Origin: a virus
Taxonomy: Duplodnaviria > Heunggongvirae > Uroviricota > Caudoviricetes
Length of the DNA: 4,815 nucleotides
IMG/VR virus record: IMGVR_UViG_2698536571_000003
Direction: 5' to 3' (one strand)
Both the position numbers and the translations under genes were made by a program. Under the pieces are notes generated by a model, which searched no databases, was not told the origin of the DNA, and saw nothing but the letters and a program-made list of their open reading frames with translations. Every line of letters starts with the position of its first letter. Within the stretch, counting starts at the first letter, position 1. Of this stretch, positions 280 through 4,815 are shown in pieces.

Positions 280-740
280 GCAGAGTCACCGCGATTATCT
301 CCGCTCTGGTTATCTGCATCATCGTCTGCCTGTCATGGGCTGTTAATCATTACCGTGATAACGCCATTACCTACAAAGAGCAGCGCGACAAAAACGCAAG
401 AGAACTGAAGCTGGCGAACGCAACCATTACTGACATGCAGCAGAGACAGCGTGATGTTAATGCACTCGATGCTAAATACACGAAGGAGTTAGCTGATGCG
501 AAAGCTGAAAATGAAACTCTGCGCGCTGATGTTGCCGCTGGTCGTCGTCGGTTGCACATCAAAGCAGTCTGTCAGTCAGTGCGTGAAGCCACCACCGCCT
601 CCGGCGTGGATAATGCAACCAGCCCCCGACTGGCAGACACCGCTGAACGGGATTATTTCACCCTCAGAGAGCGGCTGATGACGATGCAGATGCAACTGGA
701 AGGGGCACAGGAGTATATCCGCACTCAGTGCATTAAGTAG
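276..740 (+). CDS. Rz: Rz i-spanin (inner-membrane spanin subunit), 154 aa
   Basis: ATG 276 to TAG 738-740. N-terminal signal-anchor helix ([18 protein letters not shown]) followed by a charged, coiled-coil-like periplasmic domain; near-identical from memory to lambda/DLP12 Rz ([34 protein letters not shown]...). The ORF track starts at GTG 264, but ATG 276 reproduces the canonical MSRV N-terminus. Confidence 0.92.
483..488 (+). promoter_or_regulatory. Shine-Dalgarno (AAGGAG) for Rz1, located inside the Rz coding sequence
   Basis: AAGGAG lies 7 nt upstream of ATG 496. Confidence 0.7.
496..678 (+). CDS. Rz1: Rz1 o-spanin (outer-membrane lipoprotein), 60 aa, nested in the +1 frame of Rz
   Basis: ATG 496 preceded by AAGGAG (483-488) at 7-nt spacing. 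Lipobox LVVVGC with Cys20, a proline run (PPPPP) and the conserved [10 protein letters not shown] tail; matches lambda Rz1 from memory. Confidence 0.9.
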
Positions 741-782: not shown

Positions 783-1133
783 ATGCCATCACTAATCCCA
801 CGTGCCTGCCGTAAGCGTGGATGTGCAGGTACAACCACAGACAGTTCGGGTTACTGCGATAAACATCGCGGTGAAGGCTGGGTGCAGCACCAGCGCGGAC
901 TGAGCCGCCACCAGCGTGGCTATGGCTCAAAATGGACGGTGATTCGTGCCCGTATTCTGAAGCGCGATAAAGGTCTGTGTCAGTTGTGTCTGCGTGTCGG
1001 TGTGGTGAGCGAGGCGAAAACCGTCGACCACATCATCCCGAAAGCGCATGGCGGAACAGACGCAGACAGCAACCTGCAGAGTCTGTGCTGGCCCTGCCAT
1101 AAAGCGAAAACAGCGCGCGAACGAATCCGGTGA
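783..1133 (+). CDS. HNH endonuclease, phage packaging-associated (HK97 gp74-like), 116 aa
   Basis: ATG 783 with GAGGT at 774-778. Cys-rich zinc-binding N-terminus (CRKRGCAGTTTDSSGYCDKH) and an HNH core (DHIIPKAHGG...NLQSLCWPCHKAKT). Sits directly upstream of the terminase genes, the usual arrangement for this family. Confidence 0.9.
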   Translation: MPSLIPRACRKRGCAGTTTDSSGYCDKHRGEGWVQHQRGLSRHQRGYGSKWTVIRARILKRDKGLCQLCLRVGVVSEAKTVDHIIPKAHGGTDADSNLQSLCWPCHKAKTARERIR

Positions 1134-1191
1134 TAATTATTCTCACTTGTAGGGAGGGGCGGGGCAAATCCCTGTGACCTGACGTCTTCCG
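1134..1191 (+). other. Candidate cos / terminase recognition region (left flank only; remainder is in the N-run)
   Basis: Non-coding G-rich stretch (GGGAGGGGCGGGGCAAATCCCTGTGACCTGACG) between the HNH stop and the terminase small subunit, where HK97-like phages carry cos. Loosely resembles the lambda cosN left end (GGGCGG...GACCT) from memory. Positional inference only. Confidence 0.3.
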
Positions 1192-1365
1192 NNNNNNNNN
1201 NNNNNNNNNNNNNNNNNNNNNNNNNNNNNNNNNNNNNNNNNNNNNNNNNNNNNNNNNNNNNNNNNNNNNNNNNNNNNNNNNNNNNNNNNNNNNNNNNNNN
1301 NNNNNNNNNNNNNNNNNNNNNNNNNNNNNNNNNNNNNNNNNNNNNNNNNNNNNNNNNNNNNNNNN
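1192..1365. other. Run of 174 N (assembly gap or masked sequence)
   Basis: Unbroken n characters from 1192 to 1365. Confidence 1.
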
Positions 1366-1366
1366 G

Positions 1367-1681
1367 CAACTGACAACCAAAGAACTCTGCGGTCAGGGCC
1401 TGCTGTGCGTGACTGACCTGGCGGTACTTGAGCGGTGGTGCGTGGCCTATGAGTTCTGGCGACGTGCCGTGAAAAATATTGCCATACAGGGCAACACCAT
1501 CACCGGTGCAATGGGCGGCAGGGTCAAAAATCCGGAGCTGACCGCCAAAAAAGAACAGGAGTCCGAGATGAGCAGCACGGGGGCAATGCTCGGACTCGAC
1601 CCCAGCAGCCGCCAGCGTCTGATTGGCCTGGCGGGGCAGAAGAAAGCCACTAACCCGTTTCTGAAAATTATCGAATCATGA
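1367..1681 (+). CDS. terS: Terminase small subunit (P27/HK97 gp1-like), C-terminal 104 codons; 5' end lost in the N-run
   Basis: The frame is open from the first base after the gap to TGA 1679-1681 (...[35 protein letters not shown]...[13 protein letters not shown]). Stop overlaps the large-subunit start (ATGA at 1678-1681). Identity rests on position and coupling to the large subunit; the GTG at 1409 in the ORF track is an internal codon. Confidence 0.75.
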
Positions 1682-3411
1682 GCCGGAAATCTTACCCCAA
1701 CGTAAATGCTGCAAATCAGTATGCCCGGGATGTCGTGCGCGGAAAGATTGTTGCCTGCCAGTTTGTGATTCAGGCCTGCCAGCGCCATCTTGATGACCTG
1801 ATGGCGGAAAAAAGTAAGTCGTTTCGTTACCGCTTCGACAAGGACCTGGCTGAACGGGCCGCGAAATTTATTCAGCTGTTGCCGCACACCAAGGGGGAGT
1901 GGGCATTCAAACGGATGCCCATCACGCTGGAGCCGTGGCAGCTATTTGTGATCTGCTGTGCGTTTGGCTGGGTCAATAAAGGCACCCGGTTGCGCCGCTT
2001 CCGGGAGGTGTACACCGAAATCCCCCGTAAGAACGGCAAATCAGCAATCTCTGCCGGTGTTGCCCTGTATTGTTTTGCCTGTGATAACGAGTTTGGCGCG
2101 GAAGTGTATTCCGGTGCCACGACAGAGAAACAGGCGTGGGAAGTCTTTCGCCCGGCGCGACTGATGTGTAAACGCACACCCATGCTGACGGAAGCGTTCG
2201 GGATTGAGGTTAACGCCTCAAACATGAACCGTCCGGAGGATGGCGCGCGGTTTGAACCGCTGATCGGCAACCCAGGTGATGGTTCATCACCCCACTGTGC
2301 CGTGGTTGATGAATATCACGAGCATGCCACCGATGCGCTTTATACCACAATGCTTACCGGGATGGGGGCGCGACGTCAGCCACTGATGTGGGCCATCACC
2401 ACCGCCGGGTACAACATTGAGGGGCCGTGCTACGACAAGCGGCGGGAAGTCATCGAGATGCTCAACGGCTCGGTGCCTAACGATGAACTGTTCGGGATCA
2501 TCTATACCGTTGATGAAGGTGACGACTGGACCGGCCCGCAGGTGCTGGAAAAAGCCAATCCAAATATTGGCGTGTCGGTTTATCGCGAATTTTTGTTAAG
2601 TCAGCAGCAGCGTGCGAAAAATAACGCCCGTCTGGCAAACGTCTTTAAAACAAAACACCTCAATATCTGGGTGTCGGCGCGTTCGGCGTATTTCAACTTG
2701 GTGAGCTGGCAGAGCTGCGAGGATAAATCACTGACCCTTGAGCAGTTCGAGGGGCAGCCGTGCATTCTGGCCTTTGACCTGGCGCGTAAGCTGGATATGA
2801 ACAGCATGGCGCGACTTTATACCCGCGAGATTGACGGTAAAACGCATTACTACAGTGTGGCCCCGCGTTTCTGGGTACCGTATGACACGGTGTACAGCGT
2901 CGAGAAAAATGAAGATCGACGGACAGCCGAACGCTTTCAGAAATGGGTGGAAATGGGCGTTCTGACCGTTACCGATGGTGCGGAGGTGGATTATCGCTAC
3001 ATCCTCGAGGAGGCCAAAGCGGCGAACAAAATCAGCCCGGTCAGTGAGTCACCCATCGACCCCTTCGGGGCGACCGGGTTGTCACATGACCTTGCTGATG
3101 AAGACCTGAATCCCGTCACTATCGTCCAGAACTTCACCAATATGTCCGATCCGATGAAAGAGCTGGAAGCAGCGATTGAATCGGGACGTTTTCATCATGA
3201 CGGCAATCCCATCATGACCTGGTGTATCGGCAACGTGGTCGGCAAAAACATGCCGGGTAACGATGATGTGGTGAAACCCGTCAAAGAGCAGGCGGAAAAC
3301 AAAATCGATGGTGCAGTTGCGCTGATTATGGCGGTTGGCAGAGCCATGCTGTACGAGAAAGAAGACACGCTGTCTGACCACATTGAGTCCTACGGGATCC
3401 GCTCGCTTTAA
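1678..3411 (+). CDS. terL: Terminase large subunit (ATPase/nuclease), 577 aa
   Basis: ATG 1678 to TAA 3409-3411. Walker A-like PRKNGKS (about 2020-2045), Walker B-like CAVVDEYHE (about 2300-2325), and a C-terminal RNase H-like nuclease region with acidic residues ([21 protein letters not shown]). Confidence 0.95.
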
Positions 3412-3422: not shown

Positions 3423-3605
3423 ATGATCATGCTGATTCTCGCGCCTCTGGTGGGCGTGCTGGGTGCGCTTTTGCTGGCGTATGGTGCCTGGCTGATTTAT
3501 CCCCCGGCGGGTTTTGTTGTTGCCGGGGCGCTGTGCCTGTTCTGGTCGTGGCTGGTGGCGCGATATCTCGACCGTACACGGCAGTCTGTCGGCGGAGGTA
3601 AATAG
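3423..3605 (+). CDS. Small hypothetical membrane protein, 60 aa, two predicted transmembrane helices
   Basis: ATG 3423 with an upstream SD. Two hydrophobic helices ([26 protein letters not shown] / [16 protein letters not shown]) and a basic C-terminus; E. coli-like codon usage (CTG, GCG). Stop TAG 3603-3605 overlaps GTG 3605. No family recognised. Confidence 0.55.
3551..3558 (+). other. Chi site (5'-GCTGGTGG-3')
   Basis: Exact octamer on the + strand inside the small membrane ORF; this is the only exact occurrence I found on either strand. Confidence 0.8.
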
Positions 3606-4761
3606 TGTTCTTTTCGGGATTATTTCAACGAAAAAGCGATGTGCCGGTGACCACGCCAGCAGAACTGCTGATGCTATCGGGCTGTCATACGACACCTATA
3701 CCGGAAAGCGGATCAGTAGCCAGCGGGCCATGCGCCTGACGGCGGTCTATTCTTGCGTCAGGGTGCTGGCAGAGTCTGTTGGTATGCTGCCCTGCAGTCT
3801 CTACAAAATCAGCGGTACCCTGAAAACACGGGCGGTGGATGAACGACTGCATAAGTTGGTTTCGGCAAAACCTAATGGCTACATGACACCGCAGGAATTC
3901 TGGGAGCTGGTTATTGTCTGCCTGTGTCTACGGGGGAATTTTTACGCCTACAAGGTAAAGGCACTGGGAGAAGTGGTGGAGCTTCTTCCGATAGATCCGG
4001 GCTGTGTGGAACCGAAGCTGAACAGCCAGTGGCAGCCGGTTTATCAGGTGACGTTTCCGGATGGTTCCGTGGATGTGTTGACCCAGAATGAAATCTGGCA
4101 TGTGCGCACCCTGACGCTGGATGGACTTGTCGGGCTGAATCCCATTGCGTATGCGCGTGAGGCCATTTCACTGGCAGCGGCAACCGAGGAGCACGGTGCC
4201 AGGTTGTTTAGTAATGGTGCGGTGACATCCGGTGTGTTGCGTACGGAACAAAAGCTCACGCCGGATGCTTACGAGCGTCTGAAGAAAGATTTTGAGGAGT
4301 GTCACACGGGGCTTGGCAATGCTCACCGCCCGATGATTCTGGAAATGGGGCTGGACTGGAAGTCGATGGCGCTGAACGCCGAGGACAGTCAGTTCCTGGA
4401 AACCCGCAAGTTTCAGCTGGAAGAAATCTGTCGTCTGTTCCGGGTGCCGTTGCACATGGTGCAGAACACCGATCGCGCCACCTTCAACAATATCGAAGAG
4501 CTGGGGCTGGGATTTATCAACTATTCACTGGTGCCGTATCTGACCCGCATCGAACAGCGGATCAACACCGGACTGGTACGAAAAAGTAAGCAGGGCGTTT
4601 ATTACGCCAAATTTAACGCCGGGGCGTTACTGCGCGGGGATATGAAGTCCCGTTTTGAAGCCTACGCCACCGGGATCAACTGGGGAATTTACTCTTCCAA
4701 TGACTGCCGCGACCTGGAAGATATGAATCCGCGTCCCGGTGGTGTAATGCCGATCAGTTAA
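3605..4761 (+). CDS. Portal protein, HK97 family; 5' end uncertain because of an apparent -1 frame break between 3605 and 3736 (possible pseudogene or assembly indel; alternative start ATG 3730)
   Basis: Stop TAA 4759-4761 is firm. The portal-like frame carries motifs typical of HK97-family portals (RLTAVYSCVRVLAESVGMLP, WHVRTLTLDGLVGLNPIAYAREAISLAAATEEHGARLFSNGA, LEEICRLFRVPLHMV). That frame has no ATG/GTG/TTG with an SD between TTG 3520 and ATG 3730, whereas GTG 3605, preceded by GGAGG (3594-3598), opens a different frame that runs 44 codons to TGA 3737. Confidence 0.85.
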
Positions 4762-4815
4762 GGATCAGTTGACCGATCCAGTGGCTGTGTAAGAATCCGG
4801 AAACGCTCACTTGTT

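What the first reader, a model, noticed from the sequence alone, without database searches (positions are those of the whole stretch)
1134..1191. G-rich non-coding stretch after HNH is a candidate cos flank
The 58 nt between the HNH stop and the gap are non-coding and G-rich (GGGAGGGGCGGGGCAAATCCCTGTGACCTGACG). In HK97-like phages the HNH gene ends the genome at the right cohesive end and the small subunit begins it at the left, so in a prophage cos lies exactly here. The resemblance to lambda cosN (GGGCGG...GACCT) is from memory and weak.
Basis: inference. Interest (0 to 1): 0.35.

Follow-up and report, generated by a model that had tools for sequence, protein, structure and literature searches.

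The report
Left flank of a phage cos site
The G-rich stretch after the HNH gene is the conserved left-hand flank of a well-known type of phage DNA-packaging cut site (HK97/SfV/phiP27 type); the cut site itself lies just inside the run of N, so the finding is right but ordinary.

Summary
Window 1134-1191 is non-coding and lies between an HNH endonuclease gene and a P27-family small terminase gene.

Bases 1152-1191 match 38 of 40 bases directly left of the cohesive end of Shigella phage SfI, which was mapped by experiment (10 nt, TGCCCGCCCC). phiP27, whose HNH gene is 96% identical, has a cos site annotated at the same offset.

A near-identical relative (L011) shows what the N-run should hold: GAC, then TGCCCGCCCC, then a T-tract/ACCCGCGAAAAAT motif, then the terS start. 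The cut site would therefore start about 4 nt beyond the finding, hidden by the Ns.

G-richness is confined to 1152-1164. The resemblance to lambda cosN is not real.

One thing goes beyond the finding. The G-box plus CAAATC (1152-1170) is the most conserved part of this cos region. It lies 23-24 bp left of the 10-mer in HK97, mEp235, SfI/SfV, phiP27 and in Yersinia, Edwardsiella, Klebsiella, Proteus, Xenorhabdus and Pseudomonas phages or prophages. The terminase genes to its right change class, yet it stays the same. The papers I could search do not describe it. I propose it acts like lambda cosQ, or as a nuclease-positioning site.

This prophage is defective: the portal gene has a frameshift and an IS4 insertion.

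The parts
783..1133 (+). HNH endonuclease gene (116 aa), the packaging accessory nuclease at the right end of the phage genome
   Evidence: Pfam HNH PF01844, E=1.6e-16. 96.4% nt identity to phiP27 P27p34. 34% aa identity to HK97 gp74 over 70 aa.
1134..1151 (+). Variable non-coding linker between the HNH stop and the G-box
   Evidence: Mean major-allele frequency 0.83 for window 1134-1150 in 76 unique relatives (position 1151 was counted with the G-box), similar to HNH third codon positions at 0.815. About 320 nt long in HK97.
1152..1164 (+). G-box GGGAGGGGCGGGG, a conserved cos subsite
   Evidence: Highest G density in the window. Major-allele frequency 0.979 for window 1151-1170 (G-box+hexamer plus the base before it). 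1.45 bits/column across 14 diverse cos regions, against 0.29 upstream. Present in HK97, mEp235, YeP1, EPP-1, Klebsiella and Pseudomonas phages.
1165..1170 (+). Hexamer CAAATC, which follows the G-box directly and is the best conserved block of the cos region
   Evidence: 1.56 bits/column. Variants seen: CGAATC, CAAAAG, TAAATC, CGAAAG. Always 24 nt (23 in two Pseudomonas phages) before the 10-mer.
1171..1191 (+). First 21 of the 24 nt of the fixed-length, variable-sequence spacer between the hexamer and the cohesive-end sequence
   Evidence: Identical to SfI/SfV/L004/L011 (CCTGTGACCTGACGTCTTCCG, with TCTG in SfI). The sequence differs between classes but the length is constant.
1192..1365 (.). 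N-run (174 N). By homology it hides the last 3 spacer bases (GAC), the 10-nt cohesive-end sequence TGCCCGCCCC (nominally 1195-1204), the probable TerS site (T7 tract + ACCCGCGAAAAAT) and the first 182 nt of terS.
   Evidence: L011 is 1189/1191 identical on the left and 1197/1197 on the right, and has 242 nt here. L004/L005 also have 242 nt. The N-run therefore does not preserve length, or 68 nt are missing.
1366..1681 (+). 3' part of the small terminase gene (P27 family)
   Evidence: The full-length homologue in L011 matches Pfam Terminase_4 PF05119, E=3.9e-20. RefSeq annotation reads 'phage terminase small subunit P27 family'.
1678..3411 (+). Large terminase gene (577 aa)
   Evidence: Pfam TerL_ATPase PF03354 and TerL_nuclease PF20441.
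3605..4742 (+). Portal gene, inactivated by a 1-nt deletion near 3666/3667 and loss of its last ~100 nt
   Evidence: Pfam Phage_portal PF04860, E=2e-107, on the shifted frame. Alignment to four homologues shows the 1-nt gap. Homology stops at 4742.
4743..4815 (.). End of an IS4 element inserted in the portal gene
   Evidence: 100% match to the ends of annotated IS4 copies, up to 32 places per E. coli genome.

Best explanation
Window 1134-1191 is the left flank of an HK97/SfV/phiP27-type cos site. This is the side that becomes the right, last-packaged end of the phage chromosome.

In this family the terminase (P27-family TerS plus TerL), helped by the adjacent HNH endonuclease, cuts concatemeric DNA at a 10-bp sequence and leaves 10-nt 3' overhangs. 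In near-identical relatives of the window that sequence is TGCCCGCCCC. It starts 24 bp after the hexamer CAAATC, which is nominally window 1195-1204 and inside the N-run.

In HK97, TerS binds to the right of the cut (+15 to +29). The matching T-tract/ACCCGCGAAAAAT motif in relatives also falls in the N-run.

The visible segment carries the G-box-CAAATC element (1152-1170) and 21 of the 24 spacer bases. I propose that this element is a cos subsite read by the nuclease side of the machine (TerL and/or HNH, possibly sensed during translocation through the portal-motor complex). It would set or license the nick on the bottom strand a fixed 24 bp away, at the conserved RAC|YG junction. That would make it the functional counterpart of lambda cosQ.

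Shown: homology, position, conservation, fixed spacing, and the coincidence of record ends with the 10-mer.

Inferred: the 3' polarity in the SfI class, the role of the G-box, and that the hidden bases in this genome match those of its relatives.

In this genome the site is probably a relic, usable only by a related helper phage, because the portal gene is broken.
For: 1. Sequence identity to mapped or annotated cos flanks: SfI (run-off sequencing of virion DNA, 10-nt gap TGCCCGCCCC), the phiP27 'cos-site' feature, and the HK75 'cos site' feature on the last 10 nt of its record.

2. L011, which is 1189/1191 and 1197/1197 identical to the window, reads GAC-TGCCCGCCCC-ATCGTTTTTTTATACCCGCGAAAAATG...ATG(terS) where the window has N.

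3. Independent linear phage records begin or end exactly at the edges of the homologous 10-mer:
- HK97, HK022, HK75, SfI and EPP-1 end with it.
- HK633 and AsXd-1 end just before it.
- YeP1 lacks exactly those 10 nt.

4. HK97 ends are 10-nt 3' overhangs, gp74 HNH stimulates cos cleavage, and TerS binds +15 to +29.

5. Gene context is confirmed by Pfam.

6. The G-box+hexamer is the most conserved block:
- 1.45 and 1.56 bits/column, against 1.03 for the 10-mer and 0.29 upstream.
- Major-allele frequency 0.979, against 0.815 at HNH third codon positions.

7. It keeps a 24-bp distance to the 10-mer even in HK97, where the HNH stop is about 320 nt away.

8. It stays constant while TerS varies (14-51% identity among the six aligned TerS classes), TerL varies (29-38% in some loci) and the right flank swaps class.

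9. The left nick context RAC|YG reads YG^GT on the bottom strand. This resembles the CG^GT nicking sites of terminase-linked phage HNH enzymes.
Against: The cut site, the cosB-like motif and the terS start are not visible in this window.

The N-run is 68 nt shorter than the homologous stretch. If the Ns are length-true, cos or terS is damaged.

No experiment addresses the G-box in any phage. HK97 fine mapping of TerS used -20..+80 and shorter fragments, which exclude it.

The polarity of the SfI ends is my inference from the reported 'gap'.

Genomes found with the degenerate DNA pattern were selected on the G-box itself. Only HK97, mEp235, YeP1, EPP-1 and VW-6S are unbiased examples.
Confidence: 0.85

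Rival explanations
1. The G-box is the 5' arm of a hairpin, a transcription terminator or a DNA cruciform. Its 3' arm would be the C-rich 10-mer, followed by a T-run hidden in the gap.
For: In the SfV/SfI/phiP27/window class, GGGGCGGG and CCCGCCCC form a perfect 8-bp inverted repeat and a T7 run follows. The predicted fold pairs them.
Against: - The loop is about 33 nt.
- The terminator scan finds nothing.
- Fold energy is not unusual: z = -1.24 as RNA and -1.58 as DNA.
- The complementarity is lineage-specific: 3 bp in HK97 and 5 bp in most other classes.
- Classes C and D and HK97 have no T-run next to the 10-mer.
Confidence: 0.05
2. The G-box-CAAATC element is a second binding site for the small terminase (or a host factor), used to bend or wrap cos DNA. 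It would not be a nuclease or termination signal.
For: The HK97 TerS recognition region was first bounded as -80..+472, which includes the G-box. Fine mapping did not include it. Lambda cosB uses several TerS sites plus IHF.
Against: The element stays the same across TerS classes that share only 14-51% identity, whereas the right flank changes with the TerS class. The HK97 minimal TerS site is fully accounted for at +15..+29.
Confidence: 0.1
3. The stretch is conserved only because it is dragged along with the recently shared HNH gene and has no function. The prophage would package by another route (headful) or not at all.
For: Many relatives were collected through HNH similarity of 80-100%. 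The prophage here is defective.
Against: The element is more conserved than HNH third codon positions and than both neighbouring non-coding stretches in the same sequences. It persists in HK97, where it is about 280 nt from the HNH gene. It also persists in phages whose HNH is only 34-49% identical. Cos ends have been mapped in the family.
Confidence: 0.03

Closest known systems
cos of Shigella phages SfI/SfV (also SfII, SfIV)
   Same: 38/40 identity over window 1152-1191. Same spacer. Same terS/terL class (L011 and L004 are SfV-like). In SfI the 10-nt cohesive end TGCCCGCCCC was mapped by run-off sequencing.
   Different: The window's HNH gene is phiP27-like rather than SfV-like, so the element is a mosaic. 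The cut site itself is masked here. The prophage is defective.
cos of Stx2e phage phiP27 (GenBank misc_feature 'cos-site', CGCCCGCCCC)
   Same: HNH 96% identical. The same G-box, hexamer and 24-nt spacing. cos annotated 62-71 nt after the HNH stop.
   Different: The spacer sequence, the first base of the 10-mer, the right flank and the TerS class (48% identity) differ. I could not read how the phiP27 site was determined.
cos of phage HK97 (10-nt 3' overhang; TerS site +15..+29; gp74 HNH-stimulated cleavage)
   Same: Same architecture in the same register: G-run + ATCAAATC, 24 nt ending GAC, a 10-mer CGCCGCCAAA, then a T-tract/ACCCG motif. HNH, Terminase_4-type TerS, TerL and portal are all present.
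   Different: HK97 HNH lacks the N-terminal Cys-rich segment and is 34% identical. TerS is 14% identical. The HNH stop is about 320 nt from cos. The G-box is an uninterrupted G10 run.
Lambda cos (cosQ-cosN-cosB)
   Same: Same logic and order: a short, highly conserved element upstream of the nick site on the last-packaged side (cosQ, 7 bp, needed for termination), then the nick site, then TerS sites downstream.
   Different: No sequence homology. Lambda has 12-nt 5' overhangs, Nu1/gpA terminase and no HNH. cosN is not matched here. The cosQ-like function of the G-box is a hypothesis only.

Membership tests
HK97/SfV/phiP27-type (HNH-associated) cos site | Lies between an HNH endonuclease gene (upstream) and a P27-family/Terminase_4 small terminase gene (downstream), followed by terL and an HK97-type portal gene | tested here: met
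   Pfam hits for HNH, TerL and portal in the window, and Terminase_4 for the full-length homologue in L011. The ORF map agrees.
HK97/SfV/phiP27-type (HNH-associated) cos site | Left flank homologous to that of mapped or annotated cos sites (G-box + CAAATC + spacer) | tested here: met
   38/40 to SfI. Same register as phiP27 and HK97.
HK97/SfV/phiP27-type (HNH-associated) cos site | 10-bp cohesive-end sequence (YGCC...) 24 bp after the hexamer | tested here: inconclusive
   The position falls in the N-run (1192-1365). It is present in the near-identical L011 and in L004/L005. The N-run is 68 nt shorter than the homologous stretch.
HK97/SfV/phiP27-type (HNH-associated) cos site | TerS recognition motif to the right of the cut | tested here: inconclusive
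   Masked in the window. The relative L011 has ATCGTTTTTTTATACCCGCGAAAAAT, resembling the HK97 +15..+29 site.
HK97/SfV/phiP27-type (HNH-associated) cos site | Virion DNA with unique ends carrying 10-nt 3' overhangs | not testable with these tools
   This needs virion DNA. It is known for HK97 and implied for SfI by the 10-nt gap. This prophage has a broken portal gene.
Lambda-type cos | 12-bp cosN GGGCGGCGACCT or a close variant | tested here: not met
   No match with 3 or fewer mismatches in 1134-1191. The window-wide count equals chance. The masked part cannot be checked, but relatives have no such sequence there.
Lambda-type cos | Nu1/gpA-type terminase next to cos | tested here: not met
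   TerS is Terminase_4 (P27 family). TerL matches PF03354/PF20441. An HNH gene is present.
Intrinsic (rho-independent) terminator | GC-rich stem with a 3-8 nt loop followed by a T-run | tested here: not met
   No site was found in the unmasked relative. The only pairing has a loop of about 33 nt and an unremarkable energy.

The most novel reading that the evidence does not exclude
The G-box-CAAATC element (window 1152-1170; HK97 about -54 to -35) is an undescribed, deeply conserved third subsite of HK97-like cos sites. It would be a counterpart of lambda cosQ, or the docking site of the HNH/TerL nuclease. From a fixed 24 bp away it would fix where the bottom strand is nicked, and so explain how the 10-nt 3' stagger is produced.
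Probability: 0.45. Interest if true: 0.5.

Novelty: already known. Interest (0 to 1): 0.22.

Why it matters
For genome annotation, it places cos, and therefore the true ends of the phage chromosome, in a very common family of enterobacterial prophages. This family includes Stx2e phages and serotype-converting phages.

It also shows that the informative bases are hidden by an N-run, and that this copy is a dead prophage.

The broader point concerns how HK97-like terminases produce their cut. How they position the two nicks, and what the HNH partner contributes, is still open in the HK97 papers I read. A conserved element at a fixed distance on the untested side of the cut gives a concrete target for the existing HK97 in vitro packaging and cleavage system.

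Tried and rejected
1. Lambda cosN resemblance: rejected.

2. Terminator or hairpin: rejected. No terminator-like site was found, z-scores are -1.2 to -1.6, and the inverted repeat is not conserved outside one lineage.

3. Shine-Dalgarno reading of GGGAGG: no start codon at a suitable distance that is conserved between classes (reading).

4. Finding the source genome by an exact 40-mer in genome contigs: 0 hits.

Only 19 loci had HNH/TerS/TerL neighbours. The rest look like chance matches in GC-rich genomes, as expected for 16 specified bases in 596 Gb. The scan therefore says nothing about overall frequency.

7. Primary papers for phiP27 (Recktenwald & Schmidt 2002), SfV (Allison 2002) and Kala et al. 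2014 are not held. The basis of the phiP27 annotation and the SfV ends could therefore not be read. The SfV record boundary lies 7 nt left of the 10-mer, so it is not evidence for a physical end.

8. Searches for a described cosQ-like or G-rich element in HK97-type cos found none in the held library.

Full report
**What is in the window.**
The window is the late region of a lambdoid prophage:
- the 3' end of a lysozyme gene;
- Rz (Pfam Phage_lysis), with an embedded Rz1-like lipoprotein ORF;
- an HNH endonuclease gene (783-1133);
- 58 non-coding bases (1134-1191);
- a run of 174 N (1192-1365);
- the 3' part of a small terminase gene (to 1681);
- the large terminase gene (1678-3411);
- a small membrane ORF (annotated as ymfR in relatives);
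- a portal gene.

**Checking the observation.**
The coordinates and the non-coding status are right. Calling the whole 58 nt G-rich is not right: it has 29% G, the same as the window mean. The core GGGAGGGGCGGGG (1152-1164) is the most G-dense 14-mer in the window. The motif GGGNGGGGNGGGNCAAATC occurs once, against zero expected. The recalled likeness to lambda cosN fails. GGGCGGCGACCT has no match with 3 or fewer mismatches in the segment, and the window-wide count (6) equals the chance expectation (5.26).

**Identity by homology.**
- The HNH gene is 96.4% identical to that of the Stx2e phage phiP27.
- The phiP27 GenBank record annotates a 10-bp 'cos-site', CGCCCGCCCC, 62-71 nt after the HNH stop.
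- From 1171 onward the window follows the SfV/SfI type instead.
- Bases 1152-1191 match 38/40 of the sequence that precedes the end of the SfI record. That record ends ...GACGTCTTCCGGAC-TGCCCGCCCC.
- The SfI paper reports run-off sequencing of virion DNA. Both reads stop short of exactly these 10 nt, and the authors conclude that SfI uses cos packaging (PMC3636060).
- A 10-nt gap rather than an overlap implies recessed 5' ends, that is, 3' overhangs. This step is my inference. It agrees with the 10-nt 3' overhangs of HK97 (PMC9410871 and PMC11331095).

**What the N-run hides.**
A viral contig, L011, is 1189/1191 identical to the window left of the Ns and 1197/1197 identical to the right. Between the two anchors it has 242 nt:

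GAC TGCCCGCCCC ATCGTTTTTTTATACCCGCGAAAAATGAAATTTAACCAGGAGTGCCGCAT ATG...

The ATG is the start of a 165-aa Terminase_4 protein. E. coli genomes L004 and L005 give the same 242 nt.

By homology the cohesive-end sequence therefore starts 4 nt beyond the finding (nominally 1195-1204). The probable TerS site lies further right.

The window has only 174 N. Either the N-run is a scaffold gap of estimated size, or 68 nt are missing. A 68-nt loss would have to damage cos or the terS start. This cannot be decided here.

**The architecture is shared with HK97 itself.**
I placed 14 cos regions in one register. The layout is:
1. a G-box of about 13 nt;
2. a hexamer (CAAATC, with variants CGAATC, CAAAAG, TAAATC and CGAAAG);
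3. a 24-nt spacer of variable sequence ending in RAC (23 nt in two Pseudomonas phages);
4. a 10-mer beginning YGCC;
5. a right flank with a T-tract and an ACCCG(CG)AAA-like motif.

HK97 reads GGGCAGGGGGGGGGAT CAAATC ttcaaaacctttgccccaaatgac CGCCGCCAAA | GTTTGAATTTAACGCTAACCCGATTTTTTT.

In HK97 the HNH stop lies about 320 nt upstream, yet the G-box keeps its distance to the cut. It therefore belongs to cos and not to the HNH gene.

**Physical ends.**
Linear phage records end or begin exactly at the edges of the homologous 10-mer:
- HK97, HK022 and HK75 end with it, and HK75 annotates those 10 nt as 'cos site'.
- SfI and Edwardsiella phage EPP-1 end with it.
- HK633 and AsXd-1 end just before it.
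- The Yersinia phage YeP1 record lacks exactly these 10 nt: it ends ...CCGTAC and starts GTCAGATTTTT.

Several independent depositors thus placed genome ends at these two positions.

**Conservation.**

| Block | Bits per column, 14 diverse regions |
|---|---|
| Upstream linker | 0.29 |
| G-box | 1.45 |
| Hexamer | 1.56 |
| Spacer | 0.84 (last 3 nt: 1.37) |
| 10-mer | 1.03 |
| Right flank | 0.87 |

I also aligned 76 unique sequences collected only through HNH protein similarity. There the G-box+hexamer has a mean major-allele frequency of 0.979. The comparison values are 0.932 for the last 60 nt of HNH, 0.815 for HNH third codon positions, and 0.83 and 0.825 for the non-coding stretches on either side.

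Five examples were reached without any selection on the G-box: HK97, mEp235, YeP1, EPP-1 and VW-6S. All five have the element.

It returned mostly chance matches in GC-rich genomes. Still, 19 loci in Citrobacter, Mangrovibacter, Xenorhabdus, Proteus, Salinicola and others had HNH upstream and TerS/TerL downstream in the expected order.

**What varies with what.**
The same G-box-hexamer is joined to at least four right-hand classes (10-mer, right flank and TerS/TerL type). TerS identity to the window type falls to 14-51%, and TerL to 29-38% in some loci. The right flank changes together with the TerS class. This fits the HK97 result that TerS binds +15 to +29, to the right of the cut (PMC11331095).

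The G-box is therefore unlikely to be a TerS site. The gene that is always present on its side is the HNH gene (34-100% identity).

The left nick context RAC|YG reads YG^GT on the bottom strand. This resembles the CG^GT nicking sites reported for terminase-linked HNH enzymes of Bacillus phages (PMC3592412). The HK97 authors themselves raise the possibility that one strand is cut by TerL and the other by gp74.

**Proposed mechanism.**
The segment is the last-packaged flank of cos. As the motor nears the end of a genome it meets, in order, the G-box-hexamer, the spacer, the 10-mer and then TerS bound on the far side. TerS stalls the motor in HK97.

I propose that the G-box-hexamer is read by the nuclease side (TerL and/or HNH, possibly while that DNA lies in the motor/portal channel). 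It would license or position the bottom-strand nick 24 bp away. This corresponds to lambda cosQ, a 7-bp invariant element upstream of cosN that is required for termination (PMC4669245). The role is inferred; no experiment I could find addresses it. In the held HK97 papers cosQ appears only in reference lists, and no G-rich element is mentioned.

**Rivals.**
- *Hairpin or terminator.* In the window's class GGGGCGGG and CCCGCCCC are a perfect 8-bp inverted repeat followed by T7. However, the loop is about 33 nt, no terminator-like site is detected, the fold energies are ordinary (z = -1.24 and -1.58), and the repeat shrinks to 3-7 bp in other lineages.
- *Second TerS or host-factor site.* This is not excluded experimentally, but the covariation pattern argues against it.
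- *Neutral hitch-hiking with HNH.* The conservation contrast and HK97 argue against it.

**State of this prophage.**
The portal gene has a 1-nt deletion relative to four homologues near 3666/3667. Its last ~100 nt are replaced from 4743 by the end of an IS4 element. The cos, if intact under the Ns, could at most be used by a related helper phage.

**Verdict.**
The one point that goes beyond the literature I could read is the conserved G-box-hexamer at a fixed distance, as a candidate third cos subsite of HK97-like phages.

Noticed in passing
window 1192-1365: The N-run is 174 nt, but the near-identical relative L011 and the E. coli loci L004/L005 have 242 nt between the same anchors. Either it is a scaffold gap of estimated size, or 68 nt (not a multiple of 3) are missing from cos or the terS 5' end. 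The run starts 3 nt before the predicted left nick.
   Followed up: partly
window 3660-3670: The portal gene has a 1-nt deletion relative to four homologues (GAACT-GCTG against GAGCTGGCGG). This shifts the frame after about 20 codons. It may be a pseudogene or a sequencing error.
   Followed up: yes
window 4743-4815: The last ~73 nt are the end of an IS4 element (100% match to annotated IS4 ends, up to 32 copies per E. coli genome). It is inserted about 100 nt before the end of the portal gene.
   Followed up: yes
window 1165-1180; loci L010-L089: The cos region is a mosaic joint. The window's HNH and G-box are phiP27-like (96%), while the spacer, terS and terL are SfV-like. Across relatives, the same G-box is joined to four different classes of 10-mer, right flank and terminase. 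Classes B and C diverge inside the 10-mer itself (CGCCCGCC|CC against |AA).
   Followed up: partly
L011 1910-1913 and homologous positions in 14 cos regions: The junction at the left edge of the 10-mer is conserved as RAC|YG (bottom strand YG^GT). This resembles the CG^GT nicking specificity published for terminase-linked HNH endonucleases of Bacillus phages. It hints that the HNH enzyme makes this nick.
   Followed up: partly
L011 1923-1950; HK97 (L091) 13-30: The right flank carries a T-tract plus ACCCGCGAAAAAT (ACCCGATTTTTTT in HK97, within the mapped TerS site +15..+29). A different motif (CGCCGCAGGTTCGAAAAC-T8) goes with the third TerS class, so the right flank covaries with TerS.
   Followed up: partly
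L093 end / L097 start (Yersinia phage YeP1, MK733259): The deposited linear genome lacks exactly the 10 nt of the predicted cohesive end. This is what would happen if a 3' overhang were removed during library end-repair.
   Followed up: partly
L100 and L101 (Pseudomonas phages SC_8_H2H8_2017 and VW-6S): The same cos architecture occurs outside the Enterobacterales. The hexamer is CGAAAG and the spacer is 23 nt rather than 24 before GAC|CG.
   Followed up: no
window 496-678: A 60-aa ORF with a lipoprotein-like signal ([20 protein letters not shown]...) is embedded out of frame in Rz. It is presumably the Rz1 o-spanin. In related E. coli prophages (L004, L005) the gene embedded in the Rz-like gene is annotated 'Rz1-like lysis system protein LysC'.
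   Followed up: no
window 783-860 (HNH N-terminus): The HNH protein has an N-terminal Cys-rich segment (CRKRGC...YCDKH) that HK97 gp74 lacks. It may be a zinc-ribbon DNA-binding module. HK97 nevertheless keeps the G-box.
   Followed up: no
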